Below are positions 4,177 through 24,266 of a stretch of 64,000 nt of DNA, in pieces. The DNA is taken from IMG/VR virus record IMGVR_UViG_3300021437_000013, positions 1 to 64,000 of that record; one strand, 5' to 3'. The stretch is from a virus. The notes beneath the pieces were generated by a model. That model had not been told where the DNA came from and did no database searches. It saw only the letters and a list, made by a program, of their open reading frames with translations. Both the position numbers and the translations under genes were made by a program. Position 1 is the first letter of the stretch. Every line of letters begins with the position of its first letter.

Positions 4177-4188
4177 ATAACTCCTACA

Positions 4189-4992: not shown

Positions 4993-5000
4993 TTGTTCTC

Positions 5001-5802: not shown

Positions 5803-5846
5803 AATATTCTCCTATTTTAAACTTGAAGCCACAAGTAAAACTTGCG

Positions 5847-6089: not shown

Positions 6090-6103
6090 AATATTCTCCT
6101 ATT

Positions 6104-7254: not shown

Positions 7255-7416
7255 AAACACTCCCATCTACTATAATCTTCATTGCCTCATCGAACGTGAT
7301 AGTTGACGGATTATCTTTCTGAATCCATCCAAACCCGAAATCAACTGGCCGTACACCAAACATTACAAACATCTTTTCATACACGGCTTCCATTTCTGGG
7401 TTCTCTACTTTATCAC

Positions 7417-7767: not shown

Positions 7768-7778
7768 ATTCTCTCCTA

Positions 7779-8012
7779 CTAAAAATTAAATGGTATCTTC
7801 TCTACTTTAGTCCAACTTGCCACTGTGGTCTTTGGTACTTTACCAAAAAATCCCATATACAAAACTTTACCGCTACTATTAATATACACCAAAGACAATA
7901 AATAGTCAAGCGGTGATTCATGTTGCACCCCCACTACTACAATGTAAGTAGAGGCTTTGTTATCTTTAAAGGTATCGCCTTCTTCTAACTTAAACGATTT
8001 CACACAAACCAC
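7779..8012 (-). CDS. hypothetical protein
   Basis: ORF overlapping the end of the RNR gene. Confidence 0.5.
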   Translation of the reverse strand: MVCVKSFKLEEGDTFKDNKASTYIVVVGVQHESPLDYLLSLVYINSSGKVLYMGFFGKVPKTTVASWTKVEKIPFNF

Positions 8013-9852
8013 CCGAACATGCTACTTGTTCTACTCTCTCCGTCTTATCTTCAACTTCTACTACTTTAGTTAAATCAATGCCATTAACAAGCTTACTCAT
8101 TTCCTCAAACTGCTCTTTAGTACAATCTTCAAATGGAGCTTGAACATAAGTATGGTCTGAGAAAGGTAATAGTGATACTCCATTATACAATTCTCTGTTA
8201 TTCCACATTAAATCCCTTACAGTTTCCCATTCAGTTTCTCTAACCGAAATAGTCAGGGATACGTTATGAGTATTATCACCGCTTCTGTGGCCGTTTCTTA
8301 CCCATTGTGTATTATATTGCATAGCTCTATTAAAAAGAGTTTCAGCCGTTTCATCATGTCTTATTATAGAACCTTCTGGCGATTCTTGAGGGATACTAAC
8401 TACTACACCAGTAGCACTAAACTTATCATCTTCTACTAAAGCAGGTATTACATTTTTTAAATATACTGCTAACGCATCATCTTTATTCATACGAATACGA
8501 CGAATATAATATCTTGCATGTCTTGCATGAATACCAGATGAAGAACCAAGTACACATGATGCCGTTCCTTCTGGTTTAACGGCCGTTATCCTTGCTGCTG
8601 CATTAATACCAAGCTTCTTTGCAAACTTAGCATTAACTTCTTTTGCAAGCTCCGCTCCCTCTGCTAACCATTCATCGGTTACTATACCTGAACCATCAGC
8701 TATACCAGTAAATGAAACACCAAGTAAAGCTTCTTTCTCGGTAGTCTCTTGCCAAATAGGGCGCAAGTAACTAAAGTCTGTGTATGTGGCTTGTAGTGTT
8801 CCAATAACAGTGGCGGCATATATTCTATTTAAAAAGTCTTTCTTATTTGCGATGTTAGATTGATTGACGGTAGTAAGGTTGCAGAACTGATTTGGCTGTA
8901 GTGCAATTTCACAGCAGGGATTAGTGCCCATATCTTCGTTATTAGTCCAGTAAACGCCGGGTTCACCAGAACCAGAATCACGGCACATATTATAAATATA
9001 ATCAAATTCTTCTTTAGTAGTTTTATCTCTTGGTAATACTGCAGAGTTATTTGCTCTTGCTCTGTATGGGTGCTTCTCCCACCAGTTGCCATGCTTACAA
9101 GTTAGCATTGCTTTATCTGTTCTATCAAACAAACTAATTAAAGCTGCACGACGAATCCCCCCAGCTAATACCGCATCTGATATAATACAAACAATATCAT
9201 GAACTTCAATAGAAGTTAATTTTCTTCCTATAGCCGCATCTAATCTTTCCTCTACTAATTTTAGCATTACTTTTAAAGGTTCTGGGCCGGGCGCTTTTGC
9301 TCCCGTAGTAACTAAGTAACTCCCTTTAGCTCTAATCAAAGAGAAATCAAAGTCTGGTTTAGTTTTGCTAAAAAAATATGCTTCCACTAATACGTTTAAA
9401 GAGTCGGCCCATCCACTAATTGAATCGTGGATAACAAATCTAACGCTTTCGGATGGTTTCTTTATCTTTGGTAACTTTGATATGTGTCGTTGTTGAACTG
9501 AATACCCAAACCCAACACCAGATAGTAAAAGAAATAGCGCTTCACTAAAAATCTTAGTGTCGTCTATTGGTGCAAATGAACAGTTGTAACTTCTAACATT
9601 ATTCTTTATAACAGCTTCACCAGCAAACTGTAAAGCTCTCATTGAGGGCATTACTTTTAATTCATGAATGTATTTAAATGCTTTAAGTATCTCATTTGAT
9701 AGATGAGGGAACTTATTTAGGTGCATAACCATTGCACGGTTGATAGTCTCTGATAATGTTTCTCGTCTTCCTAAATGTCCTATATGTTTTGCGTATGTTC
9801 TAAATGCGGTAACTTCTGATAATAGTTTATTAGATAAGTTCATAGAGGTCAT
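7990..9852 (-). CDS. nrdJ: class II (adenosylcobalamin-dependent) ribonucleotide reductase
   Basis: YNC, GGIRRAALI, TNPCCEI, FCNL, VKPEGT and C-terminal ACSGGLCEI. No small subunit is nearby. Confidence 0.93.
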   Translation of the reverse strand: MTSMNLSNKLLSEVTAFRTYAKHIGHLGRRETLSETINRAMVMHLNKFPHLSNEILKAFKYIHELKVMPSMRALQFAGEAVIKNNVRSYNCSFAPIDDTKIFSEALFLLLSGVGFGYSVQQRHISKLPKIKKPSESVRFVIHDSISGWADSLNVLVEAYFFSKTKPDFDFSLIRAKGSYLVTTGAKAPGPEPLKVMLKLVEERLDAAIGRKLTSIEVHDIVCIISDAVLAGGIRRAALISLFDRTDKAMLTCKHGNWWEKHPYRARANNSAVLPRDKTTKEEFDYIYNMCRDSGSGEPGVYWTNNEDMGTNPCCEIALQPNQFCNLTTVNQSNIANKKDFLNRIYAATVIGTLQATYTDFSYLRPIWQETTEKEALLGVSFTGIADGSGIVTDEWLAEGAELAKEVNAKFAKKLGINAAARITAVKPEGTASCVLGSSSGIHARHARYYIRRIRMNKDDALAVYLKNVIPALVEDDKFSATGVVVSIPQESPEGSIIRHDETAETLFNRAMQYNTQWVRNGHRSGDNTHNVSLTISVRETEWETVRDLMWNNRELYNGVSLLPFSDHTYVQAPFEDCTKEQFEEMSKLVNGIDLTKVVEVEDKTERVEQVACSGGLCEIV

Positions 9853-9869
9853 TTACTACTCCTAAGTAA

Positions 9870-10052
9870 TTAAAATTGTGATTCTAAAATTGATAATGCT
9901 TCTTTCAATTCCGCTATAGATAATAGCATCTTTGGTGAATTAACCTCGATAGCTACTACAGACTTGTTATCTTCTGATACTCTAAGTTTTAATACTTCCT
10001 CAGATTCATCAGCCATCTTAATAGATAATTCAAATGTCTTACTAATTGGCAT
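9870..10052 (-). CDS. hypothetical protein
   Basis: ORF with an AGGAG RBS. Confidence 0.55.
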   Translation of the reverse strand: MPISKTFELSIKMADESEEVLKLRVSEDNKSVVAIEVNSPKMLLSIAELKEALSILESQF

Positions 10053-10250
10053 ACTATCTCCTAATTTTTTGAATGTGCTTCTTGTTTCATCTTAGCTCTC
10101 ATACCTGCTAAGTCTGACTCATCTTGTAAAGCTTTATGGCCTGCACAAGCTGATACAATCAACAAGATACCAACTATCACAAGTAGCATCTCAATAAATC
10201 CATTATTCAAAAATCTTCCTTTACTCATACAATCTCCTTTTTGGTCTTTC

Positions 10251-10279
10251 AGTATATTCTATCTCATTACAATTGTCAA
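10251..10279 (-). promoter_or_regulatory. sigma70-type early promoter
   Basis: TTGACA-17-TATACT with an AT-rich UP tract TAAAATAAATG, identical to the tract of the promoter at 11662-11689. Confidence 0.8.
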
Positions 10280-10299
10280 CATTTATTTTAAGCTTATTA

Positions 10300-10728
10300 T
10301 TAGCCCTTTAAAGGGATTCTAATCTGCTTGTGTAGGGTAACACCTAAAAGCATCTCCAACGTGTTTAAACGCTTATAATGACGTTTAAACGTGTGGTAGT
10401 ATGTGTTGCTCTTAACTCCCTGCTTACCTAACTTCTTAGCACCCTGTAGCCCTCTATTATAACAAACAACCCACGAGAAATCTAAGAACTTACCACTAAG
10501 TTTATCTCGACATTCCTTTAGGATGCTTGTACCTATCTCAATATTCTTACAAGGGTCGAATATCTTTTTCTTATGTAATTGCATTAGGCCGTAATCTTTT
10601 GTTTTAGATACAGCTTTAACTTTGTAATTACTTTCCAGTGATACAATTGCATTGATTGCTGATACATCTACATTCTGCATTAAACTGGCTTTCACCATGC
10701 ACATCTGTATTATTCCCATGATTTCCAT
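10300..10728 (-). CDS. soluble lytic transglycosylase (SLT domain)
   Basis: AIVSLES (catalytic Glu), DYGLMQL, NIEIGTSIL and YNRG motifs. Confidence 0.9.
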   Translation of the reverse strand: MEIMGIIQMCMVKASLMQNVDVSAINAIVSLESNYKVKAVSKTKDYGLMQLHKKKIFDPCKNIEIGTSILKECRDKLSGKFLDFSWVVCYNRGLQGAKKLGKQGVKSNTYYHTFKRHYKRLNTLEMLLGVTLHKQIRIPLKG

Positions 10729-10751
10729 ATTATCCTCCTATTTACAGAAGG

Positions 10752-11149
10752 TTACATATTCGGGTCTTCAAACTCACCATAATCATATGATAGTTCACCC
10801 ATTAAAAATTGTAACTCTTCCTCTGAACCATACACTAATGCCATTGATTTATTCTTTAATTCCATTAGCATAAAATCTCTTATTACATTAGCTTTAATCA
10901 GTGTACCTTTCTTTTCTGGAATAAGCAATGGTTTTTTTAGTGTAGACATGCGGCCACCTTGTTTAGTTCATTAATAATCTCTTTATCATCTGCAATTGTT
11001 ATGCCAGAATTAAAGCTTAAGAACTTAAACCCCTTTGATGCACCAGACATGATTTCATAACGGCCAACAAGTCTCTCGGCATCTAATACTTCTAATAAAT
11101 ATACTAAGCCATGAATATTATGTATGTAAACTTCCCTATTTTGTAGCAT
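10752..11149 (-). CDS. two small hypothetical proteins (10752-10949 and 10937-11149)
   Basis: Coupled ORFs in the early region. Confidence 0.55.
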
Positions 11150-11157
11150 AATCGCTC

Positions 11158-11632
11158 CTAATTATCACCAAATTCTTGTTTAAGTGTGCTTTTGTTTTCT
11201 TTATCCATCTCGTTCTTAAGACGCTCTTGCGTGATTAAGTCTTTCATCTCATTAACCTTATCAGTTTCTTTGTTAGCATGAACAATTAAGAAAATGTTTG
11301 AAGATAATAAAAATGCAACTAATAATCCCATAAATGCTCCTATTTTAAGTGACTTTCAATAAACTTTATGATTGCTACTAATCCTACTGCCATTATAAGC
11401 GGTAAGATTATGATGCAAACTACTAAATATCCTACTAAAAAAGCTATTGTTTCCATGTGTCTCCTATTTTAATACGCTGTAAATCAAGTAAATGAATGGT
11501 GCTAACAACATTAAGCCACCAACAACACCTACTACACCAGTTTTAGCAATTGTTACTGTAGTATCTACATCATCAGTTGAGATTGTGAAGATAAAGTAAG
11601 CTACTACTGCTAAAATTAATAATGTAATCATC
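11158..11632 (-). CDS. three small hydrophobic membrane peptides missing from the ORF track (approximately 11158-11331, 11341-11456, 11465-11632)
   Basis: Translated by eye as MGLLVAFLLSSNIFLIVH..., METIAFLVGYLVVCIIILPLIMAVGLVAII... and MMITLLILAVVAYFIF..., each behind AGGAG. Confidence 0.55.
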
Positions 11633-11661
11633 AGGTACTCCTTGTTTTGTTTCTTGAATCT

Positions 11662-11689
11662 AGGATATCATATCCATTAAATATGTCAA
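11662..11689 (-). promoter_or_regulatory. sigma70-type early promoter
   Basis: TTGACA-16 (ending TGA)-TATCCT. Confidence 0.65.
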
Positions 11690-11697
11690 CATTTATT

Positions 11698-11919
11698 TTA
11701 AGCCACTAACTTCACTTTACCATAATTTACATAAGTCTTTGTCTTATCTTGTTCACTTCGTCTATTAAGCTCTAATAGCCATTTAAAGCTGTCTACGGCT
11801 CTACCCTCATAGATAGTAGCGGCTTCTACATCACCATGCTCTAATGCCTTAATAACCATCTTAAACTGGATTCTTATTGTATTAATCATGTGTTGTTTTT
11901 GTGCGTTTGTCATAACCAC
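11698..11919 (-). CDS. hypothetical early protein
   Basis: ORF directly downstream of a promoter. Confidence 0.6.
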   Translation of the reverse strand: MVMTNAQKQHMINTIRIQFKMVIKALEHGDVEAATIYEGRAVDSFKWLLELNRRSEQDKTKTYVNYGKVKLVA

Positions 11920-11929
11920 CTCTGATATT

Positions 11930-11957
11930 AGTATATCATACTAAATATCCATGTCAA
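11930..11957 (-). promoter_or_regulatory. sigma70-type early promoter
   Basis: TTGACA-16 (ending TGA)-TATACT. Confidence 0.75.
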
Positions 11958-12399
11958 TCTCTAAAAGCTCCATGAATAAAATATTATCTGCCATATCTGC
12001 GGCTAAATAGATAACTTCAAGTTGATTCTCGGATAAGTCTTCACATATTGCTATGTTTTGTAATGCGTTGATTGTTTCTTTAAGGTTACTTAATGCCACT
12101 AATGCTTTATCTTTGTTGTTCATATATGCTCCCAAAACTGAGTAATCCTATGCTCTCTTAACTAAGTAACTGTACTCTCTTCTGTACATTAAGCTACCAT
12201 CTGGTAATACTGTTTCAACTCCATCAGTTGATAAGATTGATGCTCTATCTTGTGGATTCTTTAAGCTGTTAGCATATCCATGGTCATTTACGAACATCTT
12301 TTGGCTTGAAGCTACATATTCATCCATCATTTGGTTAGCTCTGTCTAAAGTAACGATTAATACTTCTACTTTACGATTAGCCATGATTGAGTTTTTCAT
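11941..12399 (-). CDS. two hypothetical early proteins (11941-12135 and 12148-12399)
   Basis: ORFs with GGAG RBSs, the first genes of the leftward arm. Confidence 0.6.
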
Positions 12400-12427
12400 A
12401 TAAGCTCCTTGGTTGTTTGTTACCTGT

Positions 12428-12455
12428 AGTCTACCATACCTAAACTATCTGTCAA
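12428..12455 (-). promoter_or_regulatory. sigma70-type early promoter
   Basis: TTGACA-16 (ending TGG)-TAGACT. Confidence 0.7.
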
Positions 12456-12482
12456 TACTTAATTTACATTATTTTGATATTC

Positions 12483-12815
12483 GGGAATAGGAAGGGCAAA
12501 GTGTTCTTAGTCTTCATGAACAGCTTAGTATGCAGGTTTGTGATGCCCGAGGTCAAACATAGAGCTTGTAAGGTATGCATTGCCTAAGATTTGGTTAGTG
12601 TTTACACACCATGAAGAACTTAGGCCAGAGAAAAAAGGGTAACAAGAACTGTTTGCATATTATCCTAACTCGCAACTACTATAATCTATCAGCTTCTTTT
12701 CCCACTTTGCCTATTTCCCTTTCAAGATTGTAAGCTGACAGATTTGCTACACTTAAGTAGCTATATTTTAGTTTATGTCCAAAATAGATAAATGACGTAG
12801 GATTGTAGAATATCA
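12483..12815 (+). ncRNA. candidate structured ncRNA, copy A (homologous to 15913-16250)
   Basis: No ORF. Helices 12495-12503/12703-12711 and 12511-12518/12610-12617 covary with copy B, and the 3' block is 35/40 nt identical. Confidence 0.7.
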
Positions 12816-13181
12816 TAAGATGCAACAAATGTAAAGGTATAATACACTTACAACACATTGTAGCTACATTTTACTTATTCTTTAGTAATTACATGAGGTT
12901 ACTATGATACATCTATGATACAAGCTATATTTAATATACTAATATTAACAGGTTTGTTAATTTAAGTAGATTCATTATTCTAATTGATGATTAGTTGATA
13001 CATCTTAAACCAATGGCACTTATTGCCATTATTTGCCAAACGATAGTATATCAATCTTACTATAGTTTAGTGTTTCAGACTAACTTTTTCTATGTTTTTA
13101 TAAAATACAAGTAAGTGATTCTTTAGTAAATACTAGTAGTTGCTATATGCTTTTATGTACACAATATATTTCATGTACATT

Positions 13182-13221
13182 AAACTGTTACAAACTGTTA
13201 CAAAATGTTACAAATTGTGAC
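13182..13221. repeat. four tandem 10-bp iteron-like repeats
   Basis: AAACTGTTAC, AAACTGTTAC, AAAATGTTAC, AAATTGTGAC inside a very AT-rich non-coding stretch. Confidence 0.8.
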
Positions 13222-13395
13222 ACTATTTAGCAGATTAATGCTGAAATTTGAATTAACATCGTAGTATTAATTATAGGACATAATTACCTTTTATGCTGAA
13301 AATACCATCTGTAGTGTTAATATTTTGATACTAAACCTAACTAATATCTTGTATTAATTATACTAATATGTTAGTATGATAAAATAGGAGGTTCT

Positions 13396-14001
13396 ATGGC
13401 TAAAAAACTAAACATAAAGCTTATACTGGCCGCACAAATGGCTAAAGGTATAAACCCAGAAGATGAAAAGATTAGGATTAAGCAGAAGGTTGAAAATGAG
13501 GAAGAGAGATTGCGACAACTTAGGTTTGAAAATCTTAAAAGAAGTATAACTTATCAAGCCGGGCTAATCGAACATAGAGATGATAGTCAAGACATAATCA
13601 ATACTATGGTTAAGGATAAGAGGAAGCTGTTTCTAAAAGAATATAAAGGATTCTCAATCCCTAATTCTTATATGTCATATTCTCAATGGAAAGTAGAACA
13701 CGCTACAATTAGCCATCCTATGTCCTATTTAAGAAACGTAAGATTACATAAAGGAATAGAGTATTTAGGTAATAAAGAGGAGATACTACAAGATATTAGA
13801 AGTAGAATAGATACTTACAATATGTATCATCCTACAGATAAGTTTAATAATCGGATATTTGATGATATAAGACATATACTAAAGAATCTTGCTGAGTATA
13901 TACCTGATATTATGAGTGATTCAGAACTTATATTTGAGTTTAAAGCAAGACACATCACTCCTAAGAATAGACACAACCCATTTATACCGCTTAACAACTA
14001 A
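13396..14001 (+). CDS. hypothetical protein (basic, helical)
   Basis: 201-aa ORF with a perfect AGGAGG RBS and no motif I recognise. Confidence 0.75.
   Translation: MAKKLNIKLILAAQMAKGINPEDEKIRIKQKVENEEERLRQLRFENLKRSITYQAGLIEHRDDSQDIINTMVKDKRKLFLKEYKGFSIPNSYMSYSQWKVEHATISHPMSYLRNVRLHKGIEYLGNKEEILQDIRSRIDTYNMYHPTDKFNNRIFDDIRHILKNLAEYIPDIMSDSELIFEFKARHITPKNRHNPFIPLNN
13992..14000 (+). promoter_or_regulatory. late promoter motif TAACAACTA
   Basis: Exact motif, followed by non-coding structured sequence instead of an RBS and ORF. Confidence 0.7.
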
Positions 14002-14005
14002 ATGT

Positions 14006-14445
14006 GAAGGAATGATAGTAAGCCATAAAGATGAGGGGCGATAATACATCTCTTCTAAAGTTAATAGCTCGTAGGTCTGAGATAATGGAAACAAAGGGTA
14101 GGACTGAAATGAGTGTGTCCAGAGAGTAAGATGAATAAACTTACCACAGGCATTAAAGGAAGCAATAGCTTCACTGCTTATAACAACCAAGCTTAAGCAG
14201 AAGGATATAGAAAGTCTTATCCTTATTTAACTTTAGACGTTTCAACCTCGGTAAGTTGAATAGTTAATGGAGCATATATCTTACCCATTAACAATAAATA
14301 GATACTTCTTAGGAAGAACTATATCTAAAAGCGACACTGAGCAATACATTTACAATGTCTTAGGCAACTTGGTCATGAGACAAAAGGTTAAGTGAAAGTG
14401 TATGTGACTTAGCAGCTACATAACCAGTCCTCTCTTCTTACCTCT
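14006..14445 (+). ncRNA. candidate ornate structured ncRNA (RNA C)
   Basis: About 12 contiguous hairpins, a perfect 11-bp long-range helix (14054-14064/14227-14237) and a 5'/3' closing helix. Starts at a late promoter. Confidence 0.7.
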
Positions 14446-14498
14446 TAAGGTTATCTTAGTATAGCAACCTAACCAGTAGCATAACTGAGTAAAATCAA

Positions 14499-14521
14499 GG
14501 GGTTAGGGGTAGGGTAGGGGG
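14499..14521 (+). other. canonical G-quadruplex motif
   Basis: GGGG-TTA-GGGG-TA-GGG-TA-GGGGG. Confidence 0.75.
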
Positions 14522-14762
14522 TAAATAGGTAGCCTGTTGGGGACGTTTAACCGCTCATATTTACAAACTTAAAATTAAAATAGAAACATTACCAGAATAA
14601 CCCTGACTTGGTAAGTGGTTAAAATACATCGTATAAAGCTATTAGAGGCTTATAGAGGGGTTAGAATGGTAATGGTAGGGGGTATATAGGGGGAAACCCT
14701 TAATCCTCTTAAAATGCCTATTACAGCATTAGGATACTTAGAAACAACCTTGTTCTTGTTAG

Positions 14763-14771
14763 TAACAACTA
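14763..14771 (+). promoter_or_regulatory. late promoter motif TAACAACTA
   Basis: Exact motif upstream of GAGG and the ATG at 14787. Confidence 0.75.
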
Positions 14772-14786
14772 TCAGTAGAGGTTGAT

Positions 14787-15461
14787 ATGATTGATTTAAA
14801 CATAATAGGTTCATGTGTGTATGCATTAATTGATGATAATAATAAAGAGGTTATTGTTATTGGTACCAGTAATGGATATAAGGGATTAGTAGAAGAGATG
14901 TATTGTATATCTACTAAAGTTAAATATGATGGGTTTACAGTTACTAACGTTGTAGCTTCACCATTACCAGAAGAATCCAGAATCAGATTACAAACAATAG
15001 ATAAGCTTATTACTGAATACACAAATAAACAGTATATAGTTAGAAACAGCACTAGAAAACGTAGTAGTATGACTTATAAGATTATCTGTAAAAGTATGAA
15101 ACTTGGTGGGATGATAACCAGACAGAACATCTTCATAGTTATAGAGAAGAGTATTAAGTATAATGGTAAAGTCCGTGGAGTATTTGAGTCTAACGAAGAG
15201 GCTAACAACTTCATTGACTACTTAAAGAGTATGAATGAGGATATGTTACGGCCACTATCTGCATGTAATGCACTTACTAAAGCTTGGACATTAGAAGAAG
15301 AAAGACAGAAATCAGAGTATTTAATACCCGGTAAGAAGACTGTGACAGTAAGTATGGATGGTCACGGGAAAGAGGCTAGAAGGATATCTTATCCTAGAGC
15401 TGTAATACTACATAACATTAAGCAGATGTTAGCCGGGTTACCTACAATGCCACTTAACTAA
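14787..15461 (+). CDS. hypothetical protein, possibly with a degenerate GIY-YIG-like N-terminus
   Basis: SCVYALIDDNNKEVIVIGTS has GIY...YIG-like spacing but is degenerate. Confidence 0.6.
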   Translation: MIDLNIIGSCVYALIDDNNKEVIVIGTSNGYKGLVEEMYCISTKVKYDGFTVTNVVASPLPEESRIRLQTIDKLITEYTNKQYIVRNSTRKRSSMTYKIICKSMKLGGMITRQNIFIVIEKSIKYNGKVRGVFESNEEANNFIDYLKSMNEDMLRPLSACNALTKAWTLEEERQKSEYLIPGKKTVTVSMDGHGKEARRISYPRAVILHNIKQMLAGLPTMPLN

Positions 15462-15835
15462 TAATTATGCATATGTCGTAGTATTGCAACTTGATCTAAG
15501 AAGCTAATATTAAGCTTTTGAAGCTGTGTACGTTTAGCCTTAGGTACACTAGCCAACTCTAATTGTAACGTGTTTAAATCGAAATTAGGTGCCTTAGATA
15601 ACGTCTTAAGTAACACCTCTGCTGATATCTCTTTAAGATGCTTACGGTTGGCATACTTAACGTTAAATACACATTCTGGATTAAGGATATCTTTCTCATA
15701 CTCTATTTCTAACCCCATACCATCATATACACCAGTTAATACTAATTCTATCTTACTGTGACTAACTACATCAAATGATTCAGATACAATTAAGTAATGC
15801 TCAGTCATGTTGTGTTTGTATTTGTAATATTTCAT
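15458..15835 (-). CDS. hypothetical early protein
   Basis: AAGGAG RBS and its own sigma70 promoter. Confidence 0.7.
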   Translation of the reverse strand: MKYYKYKHNMTEHYLIVSESFDVVSHSKIELVLTGVYDGMGLEIEYEKDILNPECVFNVKYANRKHLKEISAEVLLKTLSKAPNFDLNTLQLELASVPKAKRTQLQKLNISFLDQVAILRHMHNY

Positions 15836-15852
15836 ATTTACTCCTTACCTTC

Positions 15853-15880
15853 ACTATATCATAGCTACATATTAAGTCAA
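15853..15880 (-). promoter_or_regulatory. sigma70-type early promoter
   Basis: TTGACT-16 (ending TGA)-TATAGT. Confidence 0.7.
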
Positions 15881-15912
15881 CAAGTATCTATAATAATACT
15901 AATATTCATTTT

Positions 15913-16250
15913 AGACAATAGGAGGGGCAAGGCATCTTTGTCCTAATAATAGCCCCTGGGGGAGGGTTATGCGCCGATAGACTTGCTTGGTAGTGTTGCT
16001 CAGGATTTGTTTAGTGCTATTAACACCATTAGGAACACAGAGCTGGAGACAAAAAGAAACAGAACCATTTACACTAATATCCAAGTTACGCTATCTCATG
16101 TCGGTGTATCATCTACTTTACTGTGCCTTGCCTTATCTCTTTTTGCAGCTTAGTAGTGAATTCCAGGTTATCTTTATACTGCTAACTCTCACAGTTGTCT
16201 TTTTAGGTTATGTCCAAAAAGGGTAAATGACGTAGGATGATAGAATAACA
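15913..16250 (+). ncRNA. candidate structured ncRNA, copy B (homologous to 12483-12815)
   Basis: Helices 15926-15934/16124-16132, 15941-15947/16028-16034 and 16107-16113/16236-16242, with compensatory changes relative to copy A. Confidence 0.7.
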
Positions 16251-16308
16251 CAGAAAGGTAGATAAATCAATAATTATTATATTATTTAGTTGACAAATGA
16301 ATAGAAAC

Positions 16309-16317
16309 TAACAACTA
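16309..16317 (+). promoter_or_regulatory. late promoter motif TAACAACTA
   Basis: Exact motif at the head of the terminase operon. Confidence 0.8.
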
Positions 16318-16335
16318 CTACTAAAGGATTAAAAC

Positions 16336-16560
16336 ATGGACTTAAGAGAATGTAAAATATGTAATCAGGTTAAGCCAAGACTTACACTTGGATTATTCCC
16401 AAATGGCAGAGCGCCTAAGTATGCAGATGAACATGGTAAGCTTTGGAATGGACTTGTATGCCCATCGTGTACTGTAGATAGAGCTAAAGAAACTATGAAG
16501 ATTACAAGAAGCAATAGAAAGCTGGCCGCTAAGATTGAGAAAGATAATGAAATTAGATGA
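16336..16560 (+). CDS. small zinc-finger protein
   Basis: CKIC...CPSC followed by a basic helix. Confidence 0.7.
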   Translation: MDLRECKICNQVKPRLTLGLFPNGRAPKYADEHGKLWNGLVCPSCTVDRAKETMKITRSNRKLAAKIEKDNEIR

Positions 16561-16909
16561 TATCAAATTGATTAATACTCCTAACCCTAACCAATACTTT
16601 GATAAGGATATCTTAGAGGAAGAGATTAATCTATTAGCTTTAGCATTATACAAACTTATTATTGCCTTAAACAATAAAGAAGATATGATACATGAAACTG
16701 ATGATATGCAGCTTAGATACATTATCAGTGAAGATTATGCCGCTATTGCTAAAGACTTCCTTAAGCTTGCAGACCAAGTAAAGATACGAATAGACTTATA
16801 CCATGAAATGTGTGACGAATTAGGATTACCAAAGGAAATAGATTATGTTAGACTTTATAAACAACTTGAGAAGTTTCAAATCATTAATCAAGATTTTGAC
16901 AATTGTTAG
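16547..16909 (+). CDS. hypothetical protein
   Basis: Coupled ORF in the late operon. Confidence 0.6.
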   Translation: MKLDDIKLINTPNPNQYFDKDILEEEINLLALALYKLIIALNNKEDMIHETDDMQLRYIISEDYAAIAKDFLKLADQVKIRIDLYHEMCDELGLPKEIDYVRLYKQLEKFQIINQDFDNC

Positions 16910-17117
16910 TGTGGCCGTAGCGGTTATTAAACCAATTGCAGCAATAATAGCTATTGCATTATTAGGTTATAGTATTGTTATGCGAATATTAGACCATAAA
17001 GAGAGTCAAGAAATCAATTCTAAGGTGGTTAATAGCCTATTAGACGAGATGAAAGAGATTAGGACGCACGTTTCATCAATTAAGTTAAAACTCGGCTTTA
17101 AACCGAACAAGGAGTAG
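16845..17117 (+). CDS. small membrane protein with coiled-coil tail
   Basis: Two hydrophobic segments and a charged C-terminus. Confidence 0.55.
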   Translation: MLDFINNLRSFKSLIKILTIVSVAVAVIKPIAAIIAIALLGYSIVMRILDHKESQEINSKVVNSLLDEMKEIRTHVSSIKLKLGFKPNKE

Positions 17118-17119
17118 TT

Positions 17120-17506
17120 ATGGATATAGATAGTAGCTACATTGAAAAACAGAATGAAGTATTATTAGCACTTAATAATAAAATACTAAAATTAGAGATG
17201 GAGAAGAGGGCACTAGAACATAAGCTTACAGAGATGACTGCTAATGCTCCAACTATTAATAGTCTTGATATATTTGATATCACTGATGAGGAAACAGTAT
17301 GCCTTACTCAGATAGCTTTATTAAGAGGTCTTGCCTTACAAAGAGAACTGTCTACAGAAGAAACTAAGAGATTCGAGGTTTATCATAAAGCTATGAATAA
17401 CTTAAGAGGTAGAAAGAAAGAGGAAGAGAAAGTAGACCTTAAAGATATTGATAATGACAACCTACTACAAATATTAGATGGCACTATAGTTAAGAAGACC
17501 GAATGA
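17120..17506 (+). CDS. probable terminase small subunit
   Basis: Helical 128-aa ORF overlapping the start of the large terminase. The call is positional. Confidence 0.45.
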   Translation: MDIDSSYIEKQNEVLLALNNKILKLEMEKRALEHKLTEMTANAPTINSLDIFDITDEETVCLTQIALLRGLALQRELSTEETKRFEVYHKAMNNLRGRKKEEEKVDLKDIDNDNLLQILDGTIVKKTE

Positions 17507-20052
17507 GCAAACCAACAGCTAAACAATTAACCAGACAAGAGCTTATCCATGAAATGTGGAGAAGGGGAAACTTAGTATATAAGATGCATTCAGTACAAAG
17601 AGAGATGTACGAAACTTTAGAATCTGCAGCTCCCAATTCTGTATTAGTTTGGATGACGTCCAGGCAGCTCGGCAAATGCCTAGAAGAGAATACTTTGGTA
17701 GCTACTCCACAAGGTTCAGTAAAGATAAAAGATATACAAGAAGGAAGCATTGTATATGGGTATGATGAGAAAGGTAAGATTACTCCTACTGAGGTTATAA
17801 AGGTTCATAATCAAGGTAAAAAAGAAGTAGTGGATTTGATGCACAGAGGGAGAGTAATCGCTACGGCCACAGACGACCATAAATGGTTAGCTTGGGATAG
17901 CTACAAGAATAAAGAAGTAGAAATAACCGCCAAACAACTTACGGGATATCCTAGATATAAAATTAGAAGAGAGTATTTTGATTATGTTGGAGGTAGTATT
18001 CATGAACCGCACGCTTACACTCTCGGGGCTTTATTGGGTGACGGGTACGGAAAACATAATAAAAGTTCAATGACTCAATTATGTGTATCTTCAAGAGATG
18101 ATAAAATTCCCGAGGCTATTTCTAGAGAATTAGGGTGTTTTTACTGGAAAGCAAAAGGTAATAACTTCTCATATATACTAAGTAACACTTTTAAGCCTAT
18201 GACTAAAGGTAAAACTTATGATTTAATGACTATAAACTACTATAAAGAGTGGTGTTCTGGTAAAAAAGCACATGAGAAATTTTGTGATTATGAAACAATA
18301 AGAACTTGGTCTAGAGAATCTCAAGTTAGATTTATTGCCGGATTAATTGATACTGATGGTAGTATACATCTCTCAGGAAGAGATAAGACGGAGTTACGAT
18401 TTTCTTTAGGTATGCAGGCAGAGACTGTTATACAATGTGTAAGTAAGTTAATGTTAGATTTATGGCAAGCGGAGACTTGTTATTTATTGGATAATAGACC
18501 TAAATATAAAAATGGCCCAGTACATACTATATATTTAAATAATAACTTTTTAGTAAAAAGAATACTAAAAGAACTGTCACCTCATATAGTTACGGAACAT
18601 AAAAAATATAAAGAAGAGTATGATAATTTTCCAGAATATAATCATATAAAAGACTATGTTGGTGTAATTGCTGGAAAAAGGTATGAAGTAAATACTTATG
18701 ACTTAAGTATTGATAATAAAACCCACCTATATTGTTTAGCTAATGGATTAATAACCCACAATAGTACAATGCTATGCTTAATCGCAATAATGGCTTGTAT
18801 AAAGAAGCCTAATAGTATTGTAAAGATACTAACTGATACTAAGGTTCATGCTCAAATGATTCTTGAACCTAAATTCATAGAGGTTCTAGAAGACTGTCCA
18901 GAAGAACTAAAACCTACTTATAATGCTTCTCGATATATGTACCACTTCCCTAATGGGAGTCAAATACAAATGGCTGGTACAGATGCAGGCTCCGCCGAGA
19001 GGTTGAGGGGTGGTAAGTCTGAGCTGGTTTTGGTTGATGAAGCTGCGTTTTGTTCAAAGCTTGAGTATAATATCCTATCAGTATTAGTACCAACTACCAC
19101 CCATACTGGCGGTAAGATTGTATTAGCATCATCAGCACCAGAAGACCCAGACCATGATTTTATTAAGTTTATGGAAAGGGCAGAAATAGAAGGAACTTTA
19201 GTAAGTAAAACCGTATATGATAACCCTCTACTTACTACAGAGAAAATTAAGACTATTATAAAGGGGTATGCGGGGGGTATTGATAATCCTAACTTTAGAC
19301 GAGAGTATTTAAATATCATTGAGAAGAATGAGAAGACAACCGTATTCCCAGAGGTTAATGAAAATACAATAAAAGAGATTACTTCTAATATTCCTCCCAT
19401 GCCTGCACATTATGATTGTTTTGTTGGTATGGACTTAGGATTCAAAGACTTAACGGGCATTGTATTTGCTCATTATGACTTTAGGAATAAGCTATTAGTA
19501 TTTGATAAAGAGATAGTTAAGAAAGGGCCTGAGGTTAATCTTAAAGAGTTACCAGATGAAATATTAAAGGTTGAGAAAGAACTCTGGAGTAATAAGCTTA
19601 CTAATGAAGTTAGAATCCCTACTAAACGAGTATCTGACATTAACCCACTTGTTACTCAAGAGATTGCCAGAAATAGTAATTATCAAGTCATGTTCTACAA
19701 TGCAGACAAGGCACAGCGTATGACTGCTTTAAATGCCTTTAGAGCCGCTTTTCAATCGGGGCAGATAAAGATTAACCCCCAAGGTTGTCCAGTGCTTATA
19801 CGGCATTTAAACAATGCTAAATGGAAGTCTTTGGATGACAAGAGCGACTTTGCTAGAAGTTCAGATGATTCACATTATGACTTAGCAATGGCTGCCTTAT
19901 ACTTATTCAGGGCCGTTAATTTTGATAAGAATCCTTATCCGATTGGTAGTCGTGACCCTAACACTAATCACTATGCTGATTGGCATAGTAAGAATCAATC
20001 CTCAAACGTAAACAAATACAAAGCTCTATTAGGAATCAAAAAAAAGAAGTAG
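17503..20052 (+). CDS. terL: terminase large subunit containing an intein
   Basis: Walker A SRQLGK|S split by the intein, Walker B VLVDEAAF, LASSA coupling motif, nuclease VGMDLGFKD and C-terminal HYDLAMA. Confidence 0.95.
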   Translation: MSKPTAKQLTRQELIHEMWRRGNLVYKMHSVQREMYETLESAAPNSVLVWMTSRQLGKCLEENTLVATPQGSVKIKDIQEGSIVYGYDEKGKITPTEVIKVHNQGKKEVVDLMHRGRVIATATDDHKWLAWDSYKNKEVEITAKQLTGYPRYKIRREYFDYVGGSIHEPHAYTLGALLGDGYGKHNKSSMTQLCVSSRDDKIPEAISRELGCFYWKAKGNNFSYILSNTFKPMTKGKTYDLMTINYYKEWCSGKKAHEKFCDYETIRTWSRESQVRFIAGLIDTDGSIHLSGRDKTELRFSLGMQAETVIQCVSKLMLDLWQAETCYLLDNRPKYKNGPVHTIYLNNNFLVKRILKELSPHIVTEHKKYKEEYDNFPEYNHIKDYVGVIAGKRYEVNTYDLSIDNKTHLYCLANGLITHNSTMLCLIAIMACIKKPNSIVKILTDTKVHAQMILEPKFIEVLEDCPEELKPTYNASRYMYHFPNGSQIQMAGTDAGSAERLRGGKSELVLVDEAAFCSKLEYNILSVLVPTTTHTGGKIVLASSAPEDPDHDFIKFMERAEIEGTLVSKTVYDNPLLTTEKIKTIIKGYAGGIDNPNFRREYLNIIEKNEKTTVFPEVNENTIKEITSNIPPMPAHYDCFVGMDLGFKDLTGIVFAHYDFRNKLLVFDKEIVKKGPEVNLKELPDEILKVEKELWSNKLTNEVRIPTKRVSDINPLVTQEIARNSNYQVMFYNADKAQRMTALNAFRAAFQSGQIKINPQGCPVLIRHLNNAKWKSLDDKSDFARSSDDSHYDLAMAALYLFRAVNFDKNPYPIGSRDPNTNHYADWHSKNQSSNVNKYKALLGIKKKK
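17677..18762 (+). mobile_element. intein with LAGLIDADG homing endonuclease (362 aa)
   Basis: Starts CLEENT, has block B TDDHKW and LAGLIDADG motifs LGALLGDG and IAGLIDTDG, and ends ANGLITHN followed by +1 Ser. Confidence 0.95.
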
Positions 20053-20075
20053 TTTCTAATGTTTTCTCGTCATCT

Positions 20076-20084
20076 TAACAACTA
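20076..20084 (+). promoter_or_regulatory. late promoter motif TAACAACTA
   Basis: Exact motif upstream of GGAG and the ATG at 20101. Confidence 0.8.
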
Positions 20085-20100
20085 ATGGTATGGAGAACAT

Positions 20101-20850
20101 ATGATAAAGAAAACAACCAAGATTCTAGCTGTATCAGTTGCATCAGCTTTACTAATTGCTGCTGCAGGGGTTCAGTTCTCTGACTTCCATAAGAAATTTA
20201 TAAGAAACAAGACTGCACCAAACACAGTTATGGTACTTAACCTTGAACAGAACTCTGGTGGTACTGGATTCTATCTTAAAGTTCCATCTGGCCGTTCAGT
20301 TATTATAACTAATCGTCACGTTTGTGAATTAGAGAAAGATGGTAATATCTTGATTAAAGAAGAGGGCAGTCGCCTTACAGCTATCCATAGAGTAATCACT
20401 ATTAGTAAGAATCATGACTTATGTGTCATTGATGCAAACGGAAAAGATAAGGGATTATCATTAGCTTCTGACATTAGTGTTGGTGATTCAGTATATGTTG
20501 TAGGTCATCCTAACTTACGACCGTTAATTATTACAGAAGGTGATTTAATTGATAAGTCAACTCCAAGTGCAGTTATCCATCACATGATGAAGCCAGAAGA
20601 TGCACCAGAAACTTGTAATGGGAAGATAAAAGAAATAGAGCCATTACCGGGTTTTAAGATTCCTGTTTGTGTTCAATATGATATCAGTTATTATATCTCT
20701 GCTATTTCATATGGTGGTAACTCTGGTTCACCAGTAGTTAATAAATATGGTAATGTTATTGGTGTTTTATTTGCAGGTAATCAAAATGTAATTAACGACA
20801 CTATGATTGTAAGATTAGAAGATTTAAGAGAATTTATCAAGGATTTATAA
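20101..20850 (+). CDS. trypsin-like (S1) serine protease with N-terminal signal or anchor
   Basis: Catalytic triad motifs ITNRHVC, HDLC and GGNSGSPV, plus a hydrophobic N-terminus. Confidence 0.9.
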   Translation: MIKKTTKILAVSVASALLIAAAGVQFSDFHKKFIRNKTAPNTVMVLNLEQNSGGTGFYLKVPSGRSVIITNRHVCELEKDGNILIKEEGSRLTAIHRVITISKNHDLCVIDANGKDKGLSLASDISVGDSVYVVGHPNLRPLIITEGDLIDKSTPSAVIHHMMKPEDAPETCNGKIKEIEPLPGFKIPVCVQYDISYYISAISYGGNSGSPVVNKYGNVIGVLFAGNQNVINDTMIVRLEDLREFIKDL

Positions 20851-20851
20851 T

Positions 20852-22855
20852 ATGTCTAATTCAAATACTTATTTTGCGGATTTAGATAGTAAAGAATGTG
20901 CGGCATTATGTATGCAACGTTCAGCTACATTTTATACTACTTTACAGCGTAATGCCTACCTAGAGAAACTACGTTCTATGTGGTTATTCTATCATGGTAT
21001 TTATGCCAATCTTGGTGCTGATGAGCATCAAATTTCTTTTGGTGGTGAACAAGGTGAGATAGTAAATATCCCGATAAACCATTTCAGAAATATTGCAGAA
21101 CATATTATTAATATGATTACTTCTAACCGTCCAATGATGGAAGCTAGAGCAGTCAATAATGATTACAAGTCTTTATCTCAAGCTAATTTGGCAGGTAGTA
21201 TATTAGATTACTACATGAGAAACAAAGGTATAGAAGACAAGATACATGCCTCGGTTGAAAAAGCCGTAGTTATGGGATGTGGATATATTAAGCTTGAGTG
21301 GAACGCTACAGCTGGAGCAGTTCATGATGTGAACGATGACACTGGTGAATTTATTTATGAAGGTGAAATTGAATGTAGTGGCTTATCTCCGTTTGACGTT
21401 GTAATGGACGGTACTAAAGAATCTTGGGATAATGAATGGCTTATTGCTCGTTCATTTAAAAATAGACATAATTTAGTAGCTAAGTATCCTGAATTTAAAG
21501 ATGAGATATTAGCACTACAAACAAAGTCAGATGATAACCGTTATAGTATTTCAATGTTTACAAATGATAGAACTGATGATATTCCAGTTTATGAGTTTTA
21601 TCATAAAAGAACAGAAGCAAAACCAGACGGCCGTTACATGCTATATTTATCAGATAACATTATCTTGATGGATACTAAATTAGTTTATAGAGAGATTCCA
21701 ATATACAGACTTGCTATGTCAGAGATTATGGGAACTCCATACGCTTACACTAATATGTTTGACGTTTACCCAATCCAAGAAGCCATTAATGGATTAAACT
21801 CTACAATCTTAACTAATCAAAATGCTACGGGTATTCAAAGTCTTTGGGTTCAAAAAGGTTCTGACTTTAATCTTGAATCTGTTATTGGTGGTATGAACTT
21901 AATTGAGTCTGAAACTAAACCAGAACCAATACAACTTACAGCTACTGCACCAGAGACGTTTAACTACTTAAAGAAACTTGAGCAAGATATCGAAACTATT
22001 TCAGGTATTAATGCGGTCACAAGAGGTAACCCTGCAAGCTCACTTCGCTCTGGTAACTCTTTAGCATTAGTTCAGGCGATGAGCTTACAGTATATGTCAA
22101 AGTTCCAAAAGAACTATGTAACTTTTATTGAACAAGTTGGTACTTCTTTATTAAACATACTAAAAGATTTTGCCTCTACCCCTAAACTTATGGAAGTAGT
22201 GGGAAGAAATAACAGAGCCTTTACTAAAGAGTTTACTGGTGATATGATTAAGGATATTAATCGTGTAGTAGTTGACGTTGGTAACCCATTATCAAGAAGT
22301 ACTGCTGGCCGTGTACAAATGGCAGAACAGTTATTACAAATGAAGCTTATTAAGAATCCACAACAATACTTTATGGTAATGAATACTGGTAGACTTGATA
22401 ACATGTATGATTCTGACATGAACCAGTTATTATTAGTTAAGAAAGAAAATGAAGATATGTTAGATGGTAAAAAGGCAACGGCCGCATTATTAGATGCTCA
22501 CCGTATGCACATCATCGAACACCAAGCGGTATCAAGTGATCCAGAGTTAAGACAAAATGCAGAACTTGTTGCTAATCTTTATGAGCACATTCAAGAGCAT
22601 ATTAATTTCTTAAGAACTGCTGACCCGGACTTATTACAATTGATTAATGAAACTCCATTGAATCCACCACAACAAGCAGGCAACCCAATACCACCAGAGA
22701 ATATGCCGCCACAAAGTGCAGTTGAAAATTCTCCAATGAATAATGTTATGAGTCAACAAGGTGGAGCACAACAAAATGCAGGTTCATTACCCGGACTTCC
22801 AAAAGTTGATTCGGCATTATTGCCAAATTCAGCGCTGAACCCTAACCCGAAATAA
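20852..22855 (+). CDS. portal protein
   Basis: 667 aa downstream of terL. INHFRNI..., GCGYIKLEW, SPFDV, QEAINGLNS and ISGINAVTRG resemble P22-type portals. Pro/Gln-rich tail. Confidence 0.85.
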   Translation: MSNSNTYFADLDSKECAALCMQRSATFYTTLQRNAYLEKLRSMWLFYHGIYANLGADEHQISFGGEQGEIVNIPINHFRNIAEHIINMITSNRPMMEARAVNNDYKSLSQANLAGSILDYYMRNKGIEDKIHASVEKAVVMGCGYIKLEWNATAGAVHDVNDDTGEFIYEGEIECSGLSPFDVVMDGTKESWDNEWLIARSFKNRHNLVAKYPEFKDEILALQTKSDDNRYSISMFTNDRTDDIPVYEFYHKRTEAKPDGRYMLYLSDNIILMDTKLVYREIPIYRLAMSEIMGTPYAYTNMFDVYPIQEAINGLNSTILTNQNATGIQSLWVQKGSDFNLESVIGGMNLIESETKPEPIQLTATAPETFNYLKKLEQDIETISGINAVTRGNPASSLRSGNSLALVQAMSLQYMSKFQKNYVTFIEQVGTSLLNILKDFASTPKLMEVVGRNNRAFTKEFTGDMIKDINRVVVDVGNPLSRSTAGRVQMAEQLLQMKLIKNPQQYFMVMNTGRLDNMYDSDMNQLLLVKKENEDMLDGKKATAALLDAHRMHIIEHQAVSSDPELRQNAELVANLYEHIQEHINFLRTADPDLLQLINETPLNPPQQAGNPIPPENMPPQSAVENSPMNNVMSQQGGAQQNAGSLPGLPKVDSALLPNSALNPNPK

Positions 22856-22869
22856 TATAAGGAAATATT

Positions 22870-24242: not shown

Positions 24243-24252
24243 AATCCACCCT

Positions 24253-24261: not shown

Positions 24262-24266
24262 ATAGA

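What the first reader, a model, noticed from the sequence alone, without database searches (positions are those of the whole stretch)
12483..16250. Two diverged copies of a ~330-nt pseudoknotted non-coding RNA with compensatory changes
Seen: the ORF-free segment 12483-12815 (A) and the segment 15913-16250 (B) are colinear homologues. Their 3' blocks 12773-12812 and 16208-16247 (TTATGTCCAAAA..G.TAAATGACGTAGGAT..TAGAATA) are 35/40 identical, and GATTTG.TTAGTG...ACACCAT is shared. Where the sequences diverge, pairing is kept. P1 is GGCAAAGTG/CACTTTGCC in A (12495-12503/12703-12711) and GGCAAGGCA/TGCCTTGCC in B (15926-15934/16124-16132), three compensatory pairs. P2 is TCTTCATG/CATGAAGA versus TCCTAAT/ATTAGGA, two compensatory pairs. 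P3 is CTTAG/CTAAG versus CCTGGG/CTCAGG. A helix crossing P1 forms a pseudoknot: CTATAATC/GATTGTAG (12679-12686/12801-12808) versus TATCATC/GATGATA (16107-16113/16236-16242). A 3' hairpin shows the loop AG(T/G)TTATGTCC in both. G-U wobbles favour the plus strand. Each copy starts about 30-35 nt from the -35 box of a divergent early promoter. Inference: a selected, paralogous phage RNA family (ribozyme, protein scaffold or sponge, guide-like or packaging RNA). I do not recognise it as a named family.
Basis: partly seen in the sequence, partly recalled or inferred. Interest (0 to 1): 0.9.

Follow-up and report, generated by a model that had tools for sequence, protein, structure and literature searches.

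The report
Paired structured RNA elements behind phage early promoters
A novel 78-kb phage carries two diverged copies of a ~330-nt non-coding element whose long-range base pairing is kept by compensatory mutations, but each copy sits directly behind a typical early promoter on the opposite strand, so it is more likely an early leader or early RNA than the plus-strand pseudoknotted RNA first proposed.

Summary
A (12486-12815) and B (15917-16250) are colinear, non-coding paralogues: 57% identical overall, 86% in a 50-nt end block. A covariance model built from A alone finds B at E=7e-13. Of 32 modelled pairs, 31 form in both copies, and 9 changed on both sides (0-1 in slid controls). There is no Rfam match, and the genome holds only these two copies. 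No homologue appeared in 160 related loci, 30 whole related phage records, or motif scans of IMG/VR and GTDB genomes.

The interpretation needs revision. The conserved "3' block" contains TGnTATTCT on the minus strand, with a -35 box 17 nt upstream. This fits the phage's strict early-promoter class, whose other minus-strand members mostly sit directly in front of genes. These two promoters point into A and B. The block is therefore most likely the -10 box plus the first ~45 nt of a leftward early transcript: a 17-nt single strand, then an 8-bp covarying hairpin. Folding energies and wobble counts do not settle the strand. The proposed pseudoknot is no better than chance.

Function is unknown. 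My best guess is an early leader or early non-coding RNA acting on transcription or processing. This scan flagged the same island before, on this same DNA only. Interest is moderate.

The parts
12486..12815 (-). Element A: the whole homologous, non-coding segment. The strand shown is the best-supported direction of transcription and is not proven.
   Evidence: Alignments. CM R2 scores 262 bits. No ORF is shared with B, and the indels are not multiples of 3.
15917..16250 (-). Element B, the paralogue of A.
   Evidence: Found by a CM built from A alone at 59 bits, E=7e-13. These are the only two copies in the 77.8-kb genome.
12807..12835 (-). Distal early promoter of A: TTTACA, 17 nt, TGaTATTCT. 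The -10 box is 12812-12807 and the -35 box is 12835-12830. It fires leftward into A.
   Evidence: It belongs to the strict class TTGACx-16/17-TGnTAnnCT, seven of whose minus-strand members stand directly in front of a ribosome-binding site and ATG.
16242..16270 (-). Distal early promoter of B: TTGATT, 17 nt, TGtTATTCT. The -10 box is 16247-16242 and the -35 box is 16270-16265. It fires leftward into B.
   Evidence: The -10 box lies in the conserved block. The -35 box lies in non-homologous flank but at the same 17-nt spacing.
12764..12806 (-). Conserved start of the putative leftward RNA of A: a ~17-nt single strand (AUCCUACGUCAUUUAUC), then an 8-bp hairpin (12786-12779 with 12771-12764) with loop ACAUAAA.
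   Evidence: The stem reads UAUUUUGG/CUAAAAUA in A and CUUUUUGG/CUAAAAAG in B, which is two compensatory pairs.
16199..16241 (-). The same conserved start in B: a single strand, then an 8-bp hairpin (16221-16214 with 16206-16199) with loop ACAUAAC.
12490..12503 (.). P1 of A, first arm (GGAA + GGGCAAAGUG). It pairs with 12703-12718.
12703..12718 (.). P1 of A, second arm (CACUUUGCCU, a 2-nt bulge, then UUCC).
   Evidence: P1 carries 3+1 compensatory pairs against B.
12506..12528 (.). A, first arms of P2a (12506-12510), P2 (12511-12518) and P3 (12524-12528).
12584..12624 (.). A, second arms of P3 (12584-12588), P2 (12610-12617) and P2a (12620-12624). The conserved joining strand GAUUUGGUUAGUG...ACACC lies between them.
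15921..15960 (.). B, first arms of P1 (15921-15934), P2a (15936-15940), P2 (15941-15947) and P3 (15955-15960).
15999..16140 (.). B, second arms of P3 (15999-16004), P2 (16028-16034), P2a (16038-16042) and P1 (16124-16133 and 16137-16140).
12428..12455 (-). Proximal early promoter downstream of A (TTGACA, 16 nt, TGgTAGACT). It drives gene 12399-12148.
15853..15880 (-). Proximal early promoter downstream of B (TTGACT, 16 nt, TGaTATAGT). It drives gene 15835-15458.

Best explanation
A and B are two paralogous copies of a lineage-specific structured RNA module, about 315-335 nt long. Host sigma-70 RNA polymerase most likely transcribes them leftward (minus strand) early in infection.

Each copy starts at a conserved extended -10 promoter (TGnTATTCT). 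The RNA opens with a conserved 17-nt single strand and an 8-bp hairpin with a conserved loop. A domain follows that is closed by a 14-bp long-range helix (P1) around nested helices P2a, P2 and P3. The element ends about 30 nt before a second early promoter that serves the next gene.

Shown: homology, non-coding nature, selection for pairing, and the promoters' sequence, position and class.

Inferred: that these promoters fire, that the functional strand is minus, and the function itself. I propose an early leader or early non-coding RNA that acts on transcription or processing of the two leftward early units. The conserved single strand plus hairpin would be a nut/put-like site engaging the transcribing polymerase or a phage or host factor. 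P1 would be a folding clamp or processing stem that releases the enclosed domain.
For: Pairing is conserved through 9 double changes in 32 pairs. 98.4% of cells pair, against 36-57% in slid controls. B is found by a model built from A alone. Consensus-fold z-scores run from -2.5 to -7.7.

Genome-wide, the strict motif TTGACx-like -35, 16-18 nt, TGnTAnnCT gives 15 minus-strand hits and only 4 poor plus-strand hits, all inside the late gene block. Seven minus-strand hits are followed within about 10-35 nt by a ribosome-binding site and ATG. Two hits are exactly the right ends of A and B, pointing inward. A relative's early promoters use the same TGATATTCT -10 box (L147).

Conservation is highest from the -10 box to about +45 (86%), and both copies share the same fold there. 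The helix of this hairpin is 8 bp on the minus strand and 6 bp on the plus strand. No comparable plus-strand promoter lies upstream of either copy.

The closest relative with long flanks has, in its equivalent ORF-free island, an early promoter of this class that is followed by no ORF. The ~330 nt behind it fold better than shuffles (z=-2.9) and carry a terminator-like hairpin read by eye.
Against: Only two sequences exist, so the covariation counts are thin, and the alignment was fitted to the structure.

Wobble pairs at helix ends are more frequent on the plus strand: about 7 G-U cells against 1-2 on the minus strand. P2a pairs fully only on the plus strand. The plus strand also folds more stably, especially B (-62 versus -48 kcal/mol).

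No terminator is visible between the element and the proximal promoter on the minus strand, so 'leader' and 'separate RNA' cannot be told apart. No N-like or other RNA-binding partner was identified, and the neighbouring proteins are orphans. The proposed mechanism is inference only.
Confidence: 0.45

Rival explanations
1. One reading: a stand-alone plus-strand non-coding RNA of about 285-330 nt. It would start near 12487 and 15914 from weak promoters that overlap the divergent -35 boxes. It would end either at a weak hairpin plus U-run (12746-12770 and about 16180-16205) or after the conserved block, and would act in trans.
For: The plus strand has more wobble pairs at helix ends, and helix P2a forms only there. 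The plus strand folds more stably. Both copies have a small hairpin followed by a U-run just before the block. The -10-like words GATATT and AATATT lie 6-12 nt before the start of homology. On the plus strand the block can be drawn as a compact H-type pseudoknot, with stem 1 covarying (my reading).
Against: The candidate plus-strand promoters are poor: at best 7 of 12 consensus positions, no TG, and not in the phage's early class. No TAACAACTA late motif lies upstream. The terminator-like hairpins have only 4-5 bp, and such hits are no commoner than in shuffles. This model does not explain why a full early promoter of the strict class points into each copy from the other end. The claimed pseudoknot is at chance level. 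Plus-strand single-sequence z-scores are about 0.
Confidence: 0.25
2. Both strands are made. A weak rightward transcript and a strong leftward early transcript would overlap completely. The element would then work as a sense/antisense switch (transcriptional interference or an RNase III-sensitive duplex) at the two junctions of early and late transcription.
For: Promoter-like sites face inward at both ends. In A they form an 8-bp inverted match, TGATATTC at 12475-12482 and GAATATCA at 12808-12815. Each strand has its own strand-specific covarying helix: P2a on the plus strand, and GGAAA/UUUCU versus GAGAU/GUCUC on the minus strand. Both strands give significant consensus-fold z-scores.
Against: The left-end -10-like words lack the invariant final T (TATTCG, TATTCA). 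A simple antisense pair does not need conserved intramolecular helices. No data exist.
Confidence: 0.1
3. There is no RNA function. A and B would be a duplicated promoter-upstream or control DNA segment (operator, origin-associated or enhancer DNA), or a decaying duplication.
For: They lie in the control island at the strand switch, next to an AT-rich stretch with four 10-nt direct repeats at 13182-13221. Relatives also duplicate their early promoter regions (L147, 79% over 65 nt).
Against: Neutral decay to 57% identity would break most pairs, yet 31 of 32 survive, 9 of them through double changes. The arms of P1 are about 200 nt apart, too far for a DNA cruciform. Protein-binding sites do not produce compensatory changes.
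Confidence: 0.07
4. A and B are copies of a small non-autonomous mobile element (MITE-like) that landed behind early promoters.
For: The elements are absent from relatives whose equivalent intergenic regions are compact (about 80-170 nt in L147). A has an 8-bp terminal inverted match. The genome is rich in mobile DNA: an intein in the terminase and an HNH homing endonuclease.
Against: There is no target-site duplication. The terminal match is only 5-6 of 8 in B. There are only two copies, at 57% identity, and none in 30 related genomes. No transposase is present. Compensatory changes point to long-term selection on structure.
Confidence: 0.05

Closest known systems
putL/putR of phage HK022 (cis-acting RNAs that make RNA polymerase resistant to terminators). 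From my own knowledge of the literature, not tested here.
   Same: There are two diverged paralogous copies in one phage, one behind each of two early promoters. Stems covary between the copies. The elements are non-coding and are made by host polymerase at the start of early transcripts.
   Different: put RNAs are about 70 nt with two stem-loops. This element is about 330 nt with a long-range closing helix. There is no sequence similarity and no Rfam hit. A second promoter follows each copy here. Antitermination was not tested.
nutL/nutR of lambdoid phages (a boxA linear element plus a boxB hairpin). From my own knowledge.
   Same: A conserved single-stranded word is followed, after a short spacer, by a hairpin whose stem covaries and whose loop is conserved. 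It is present once per early unit, close to the start site.
   Different: The hairpin is 8 bp with a 7-nt loop, not 5 bp with a GNRA-like pentaloop. The word GUCAUUUA matches boxA GCUCUUUA at only 5 of 8 positions. No arginine-rich N-like protein is evident downstream. About 270 further structured nucleotides follow.
The T7 early leader (tandem A1-A3 promoters, a non-coding leader and RNase III sites) and rrn operon leaders with a leader-trailer helix. From my own knowledge.
   Same: Tandem host-type early promoters are separated by non-coding, structured RNA. A long-range helix could act as a processing stem around an enclosed domain.
   Different: P1 is 10+4 bp with a bulge, shorter than typical RNase III substrates. 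No cleavage data exist. There are two paralogous copies at two different operons.
Large ornate phage-associated RNAs (GOLLD, ROOL) and other Rfam families.
   Same: A long, structured, non-coding, phage-borne RNA of unknown function.
   Different: No match to any of the 4227 Rfam models, even at E up to 10. It is much shorter and is not next to tRNA genes (none in the window).

Membership tests
Any Rfam 15 family | A score at or above the family's gathering threshold. | tested here: not met
   There were 0 hits over the window at gathering thresholds. Over 12000-16800 at E up to 10, only three chance eukaryotic miRNA/snoRNA hits appeared, all outside A and B.
HK022 put RNA | Two adjacent stem-loops of about 70 nt directly behind an early promoter, in two paralogous copies. 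| tested here: inconclusive
   Two copies behind early-class promoters: met. Two small hairpins do follow the start, but they differ from put in size and sequence, and the element is about five times longer.
HK022 put RNA | Factor-independent suppression of downstream terminators in cis. | not testable with these tools
   This needs in vitro or in vivo read-through assays.
Lambda-type nut site | A boxA consensus, a boxB hairpin with a GNRA-like loop, and an N-type arginine-rich protein. | tested here: not met
   Only 5 of 8 positions match boxA. The loop has 7 nt. The downstream 83-aa and 125-aa proteins show no arginine-rich motif (read by eye) and no family hit.
Retron msr-msd RNA | Flanking inverted repeats plus an adjacent reverse transcriptase. 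| tested here: not met
   P1 resembles the a1/a2 repeats, but RVT_1 gives no hit anywhere in the genome.
TnpB/IscB omega RNA or IS110 bridge RNA | An adjacent RNA-guided nuclease or recombinase gene. | tested here: not met
   No hit to the TnpB-type zinc-ribbon domain or to the IS110 DEDD domain in the genome.
MITE-like mobile element | Terminal inverted repeats, a target-site duplication, and many dispersed copies. | tested here: not met
   There is an 8-bp terminal match in A only, no duplication, two copies in the genome and none in 30 related records.
Protein-coding gene | An ORF shared by the copies, with in-frame indels. | tested here: not met
   ORFs of 37-79 codons differ in frame between the copies. 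The indels are 1, 1, 3, 1, 14, 14 and 1 nt.
   The arms are complementary in both copies (9 and 8 bp), with one double change under an alternative alignment that I made by hand. Such helices are as common in shuffles, and the MAFFT columns differ.

The most novel reading that the evidence does not exclude
A and B represent a new class of large structured early phage RNA. Host polymerase would make it in the first minutes of infection from duplicated promoters. It would either reprogramme the transcribing polymerase, acting as a put-like processive antiterminator several times larger than any known, or be released by processing as a stable decoy or sponge against a host factor or defence system. 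The ORF-free islands seen at the same position in related phages might then hold analogous, unrelated early RNAs.
Probability: 0.25. Interest if true: 0.75.

Novelty: new variant of a known kind. Interest (0 to 1): 0.5.

Why it matters
If the element is real and functional, it adds a large, structurally defined RNA to the few known cis- or trans-acting RNAs that steer early phage transcription. Two natural paralogues already mark which pairs matter.

It also shows how reading one strand alone can mislead. The most conserved stretch is a promoter plus an RNA 5' end on the other strand.

The wider phage group consists of uncultured freshwater and soil phages of about 75-95 kb. Several of them have variable ORF-free islands at the same junction, so this region may be a hotspot for regulatory RNAs. 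At present this is one genome, two copies, and no expression data.

Tried and rejected
1. My first motif scan used the wrong spacing, 3 N instead of 4, and is void. The scans that count are the exact 15-mer (61 hits), the middle motif (4 hits) and a gapped block motif in IMG/VR (1 hit) and in GTDB genomes (7 hits). All hits lacked the neighbouring motifs and are chance matches.
2. BLASTN of A and B against cultured phages: no match.
3. nhmmer with the A+B profile, and with the extended island segments, against 160 loci around terminase relatives: nothing.
4. CM R2 over the same loci: best E 0.06-0.09, all short hairpins. Over 30 whole related records: best E 0.012, a 100-nt partial match.
5. 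A weak third hit of model R1 at 14298-14459 (E 0.09) was not recovered by R2, so I rejected it as a third copy.
Relatives cannot be drawn for a virus record.
8. The neighbouring proteins are not paralogues of each other and have no Pfam or PHROG family. The Atlas gave only a sub-threshold GIY-YIG lead for the 224-aa protein, which Pfam did not support.
9. Literature searches for the late motif and for early-leader RNAs gave nothing specific.
10. A 13-bp helix in A (12683-12695 with 12730-12742) is not conserved in B, so I dropped it.


Full report
CONTEXT. The window is the first 64 kb of a 77.8-kb IMG/VR virus record, estimated 91% complete. It is a lytic-type tailed phage. It has a T4-type large terminase interrupted by a LAGLIDADG intein, a P22-like portal and a major head protein. 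It also encodes family-B DNA polymerase, ribonucleotide reductase, ThyX and two DNA methylases. It is far from cultured phages: the best portal match is 28% identical, to a Silvanigrella phage.

Genes at 1-12399 and beyond 54875 run leftward. The structural block 16336-54585 runs rightward. The finding lies in the 3.9-kb island between these blocks, which is unusually poor in ORFs.

THE OBSERVATION. MAFFT aligns A and B colinearly, with 187 of 328 ungapped columns identical. The seven indels are 1, 1, 3, 1, 14, 14 and 1 nt, and no ORF is shared in frame, so the segments are non-coding. Identity peaks at the left end (18/25), in the middle joining strand (18/25) and in the right-hand block (20/25; 86% over 50 nt).

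I built a covariance model from A alone, using five helices that I specified: P1b, P1a, P2a, P2 and P3. It finds B at 59 bits, E=7e-13. On the resulting alignment 63 of 64 cells pair. Nine of 32 pairs changed on both sides and six more on one side. Sliding the partner by 1-3 columns gives 36-57% pairing and 0-1 double changes, and 2 of 500 shuffles reach the observed values. That alignment is fitted to the structure, and the structure came from A. But B's complementarity is independent information, and the structure-blind MAFFT alignment already shows P1 with three double changes. Consensus folding beats column-shuffled alignments (z=-2.5 to -7.7). Neutral divergence to 57% identity would have destroyed most of these pairs, so the pairing is under selection. 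Single-sequence folding energies are unremarkable (z about 0 on the plus strand), so the case rests on comparison, not thermodynamics.

WHAT IS NOT CONFIRMED. The proposed pseudoknot arms are complementary: 9 bp in A and 8 bp in B. However, helices of 7 bp or more between the end block and the rest occur about 13 times per shuffled sequence, against 7 and 13 observed. The 5' arms also fall in different MAFFT columns. The wobble argument for the plus strand is weak. All G-U cells lie at helix ends, while the cores of P1, P2 and P3 are Watson-Crick and therefore identical on both strands. Each strand has one private 5-bp helix with compensatory changes. The end-block hairpin is 8 bp on the minus strand and 6 bp on the plus strand. 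Energies favour the plus strand for B but not for A, and the z-scores of the unbiased alignment favour the minus strand.

THE KEY NEW POINT: PROMOTERS. The leftward early genes are served by a sharply defined promoter type: TTGACA-like, 16-17 nt, TGnTAnnCT. With a -35 match of at least 4 of 6, this motif occurs 15 times on the minus strand. It occurs only 4 times on the plus strand, always with a poor -35 box and inside the late gene block (16846-29988). Seven minus-strand hits are followed within about 10-35 nt by a ribosome-binding site and a start codon.

Two hits are different. TTTACA-17-TGATATTCT ends at 12807, and TTGATT-17-TGTTATTCT ends at 16242. A related phage (L147) uses the same TGATATTCT -10 box for its two early promoters, which there abut their genes directly with no such element.

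The block therefore reads best as the -10 box plus the first ~45 nt of a leftward early transcript. This stretch has a conserved 17-nt single strand (AUCCUACGUCAUUUAYC). An 8-bp hairpin follows, with two compensatory pairs and a conserved loop (ACAUAAM), and then a second small hairpin whose sequence differs entirely between the copies. After the P1 domain, and about 30-36 nt further on, a second early promoter of the same kind serves the next gene. No comparable promoter and no TAACAACTA late motif lies upstream of either copy on the plus strand.

DISTRIBUTION. The genome holds exactly two copies. I gathered 160 loci around terminase relatives (40-58% identity) from JGI metagenomes and IMG/VR. 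Neither nhmmer nor model R2 found a homologue there, nor in 30 whole related records, ten of them at least 90% complete. Motif scans of IMG/VR and of GTDB species genomes gave only chance hits. The small zinc-ribbon gene just right of B is conserved across the group. The space upstream of it ranges from nothing to 2.7 kb, so this junction is a variable control region.

The closest relative with long flanks (L071) has a 1.5-kb ORF-free island at this junction. It contains an early promoter of this class with no ORF behind it. The ~330 nt behind the promoter fold better than shuffles (z=-2.9), show a terminator-like hairpin by eye, and are unrelated in sequence to A and B. The four proteins of the island have no homologues in the relatives' loci. 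The genome has no reverse transcriptase, TnpB-like or IS110-like gene, which removes the retron, omega-RNA and bridge-RNA readings.

INTERPRETATION. I regard four things as shown: (i) two paralogous non-coding elements; (ii) selection for a nested set of helices closed by a long-range P1; (iii) a full early-class promoter aimed into each element; (iv) no known family and no detectable relatives.

I infer, at roughly 55-60%, that the functional transcript is the leftward one. With much lower confidence I infer that it acts on early transcription or RNA processing. The nearest analogies are the paired put or nut sites behind the two early promoters of lambdoid phages, and the structured leaders between tandem early promoters in T7. 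These analogies rest on my own knowledge, and membership was not met or could not be tested.

Whether the RNA is a leader that continues into the genes or a separate early RNA is open. The second promoter right after each element hints at a separate unit, but no terminator is visible on the minus strand. So, less likely, does a sense/antisense pair. A purely DNA-level role or a mobile element is unlikely given the compensatory changes.

LIMITS. Earlier notes of this scan on the same genome describe the island, the TAACAACTA late motif and a third ORF-free stretch between A and B. I used them as context only. The scan has no look-alike on other DNA.

Noticed in passing
window 14002-14786: A 785-nt stretch with no convincing ORF lies between the two orphan genes and starts right after a TAACAACTA motif (13992). 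It holds two G-tract clusters (about 14499-14522 and 14657-14694) that could form G-quadruplexes. It has no Rfam hit and no homologue in the relatives' loci.
   Followed up: partly
window 13182-13221: Four direct repeats with a 10-nt period (AAACTGTTAC-like) lie in the AT-rich, ORF-free stretch right of A. They could be iterons or operator sites of a possible origin or control region.
   Followed up: no
whole genome, e.g. window 11938, 11670, 12436, 57388, 59611 (minus strand): There is a sharply defined early promoter class, TTGACA, 16-17 nt, TGnTAnnCT, almost only on the minus strand and mostly directly before genes. This suggests a host with sigma-70-type promoters.
   Followed up: partly
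window 17503-20052: The large terminase is 849 aa and carries a LAGLIDADG-type intein. Relatives without the insert are about 485 aa, and many relatives carry inteins of several kinds.
   Followed up: partly
window 34436-35866: A 476-aa HNH-type homing endonuclease gene sits just after the major head protein gene in the late block.
   Followed up: no
window 12475-12482 and 12808-12815: An 8-bp inverted match (TGATATTC / GAATATCA) bounds element A exactly. The match in B is only 5-6 of 8. It may be chance, or -10-like words facing inward at both ends.
   Followed up: partly
L071 3795-5298: The closest relative with long flanks has a 1.5-kb ORF-free island upstream of the conserved zinc-ribbon gene. 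It has an early promoter at 4891 (minus strand). The ~330 nt behind it are ORF-free, fold better than shuffles (z=-2.9) and carry a terminator-like hairpin seen by eye. The island also holds TAACAACT late motifs on the plus strand.
   Followed up: partly
L076 about 7170-7420: Another relative has five tandem copies, about 57 nt apart, of CTATTGAATTYACATA-like words in its ORF-free island. These could be tandem promoters or iterons.
   Followed up: no
window 61701-61715: TTAATGACGTAGTAT matches the core of the conserved block with 2 mismatches. It lies about 60-70 nt downstream of another leftward early-type promoter, inside or next to a small gene.
   Followed up: no
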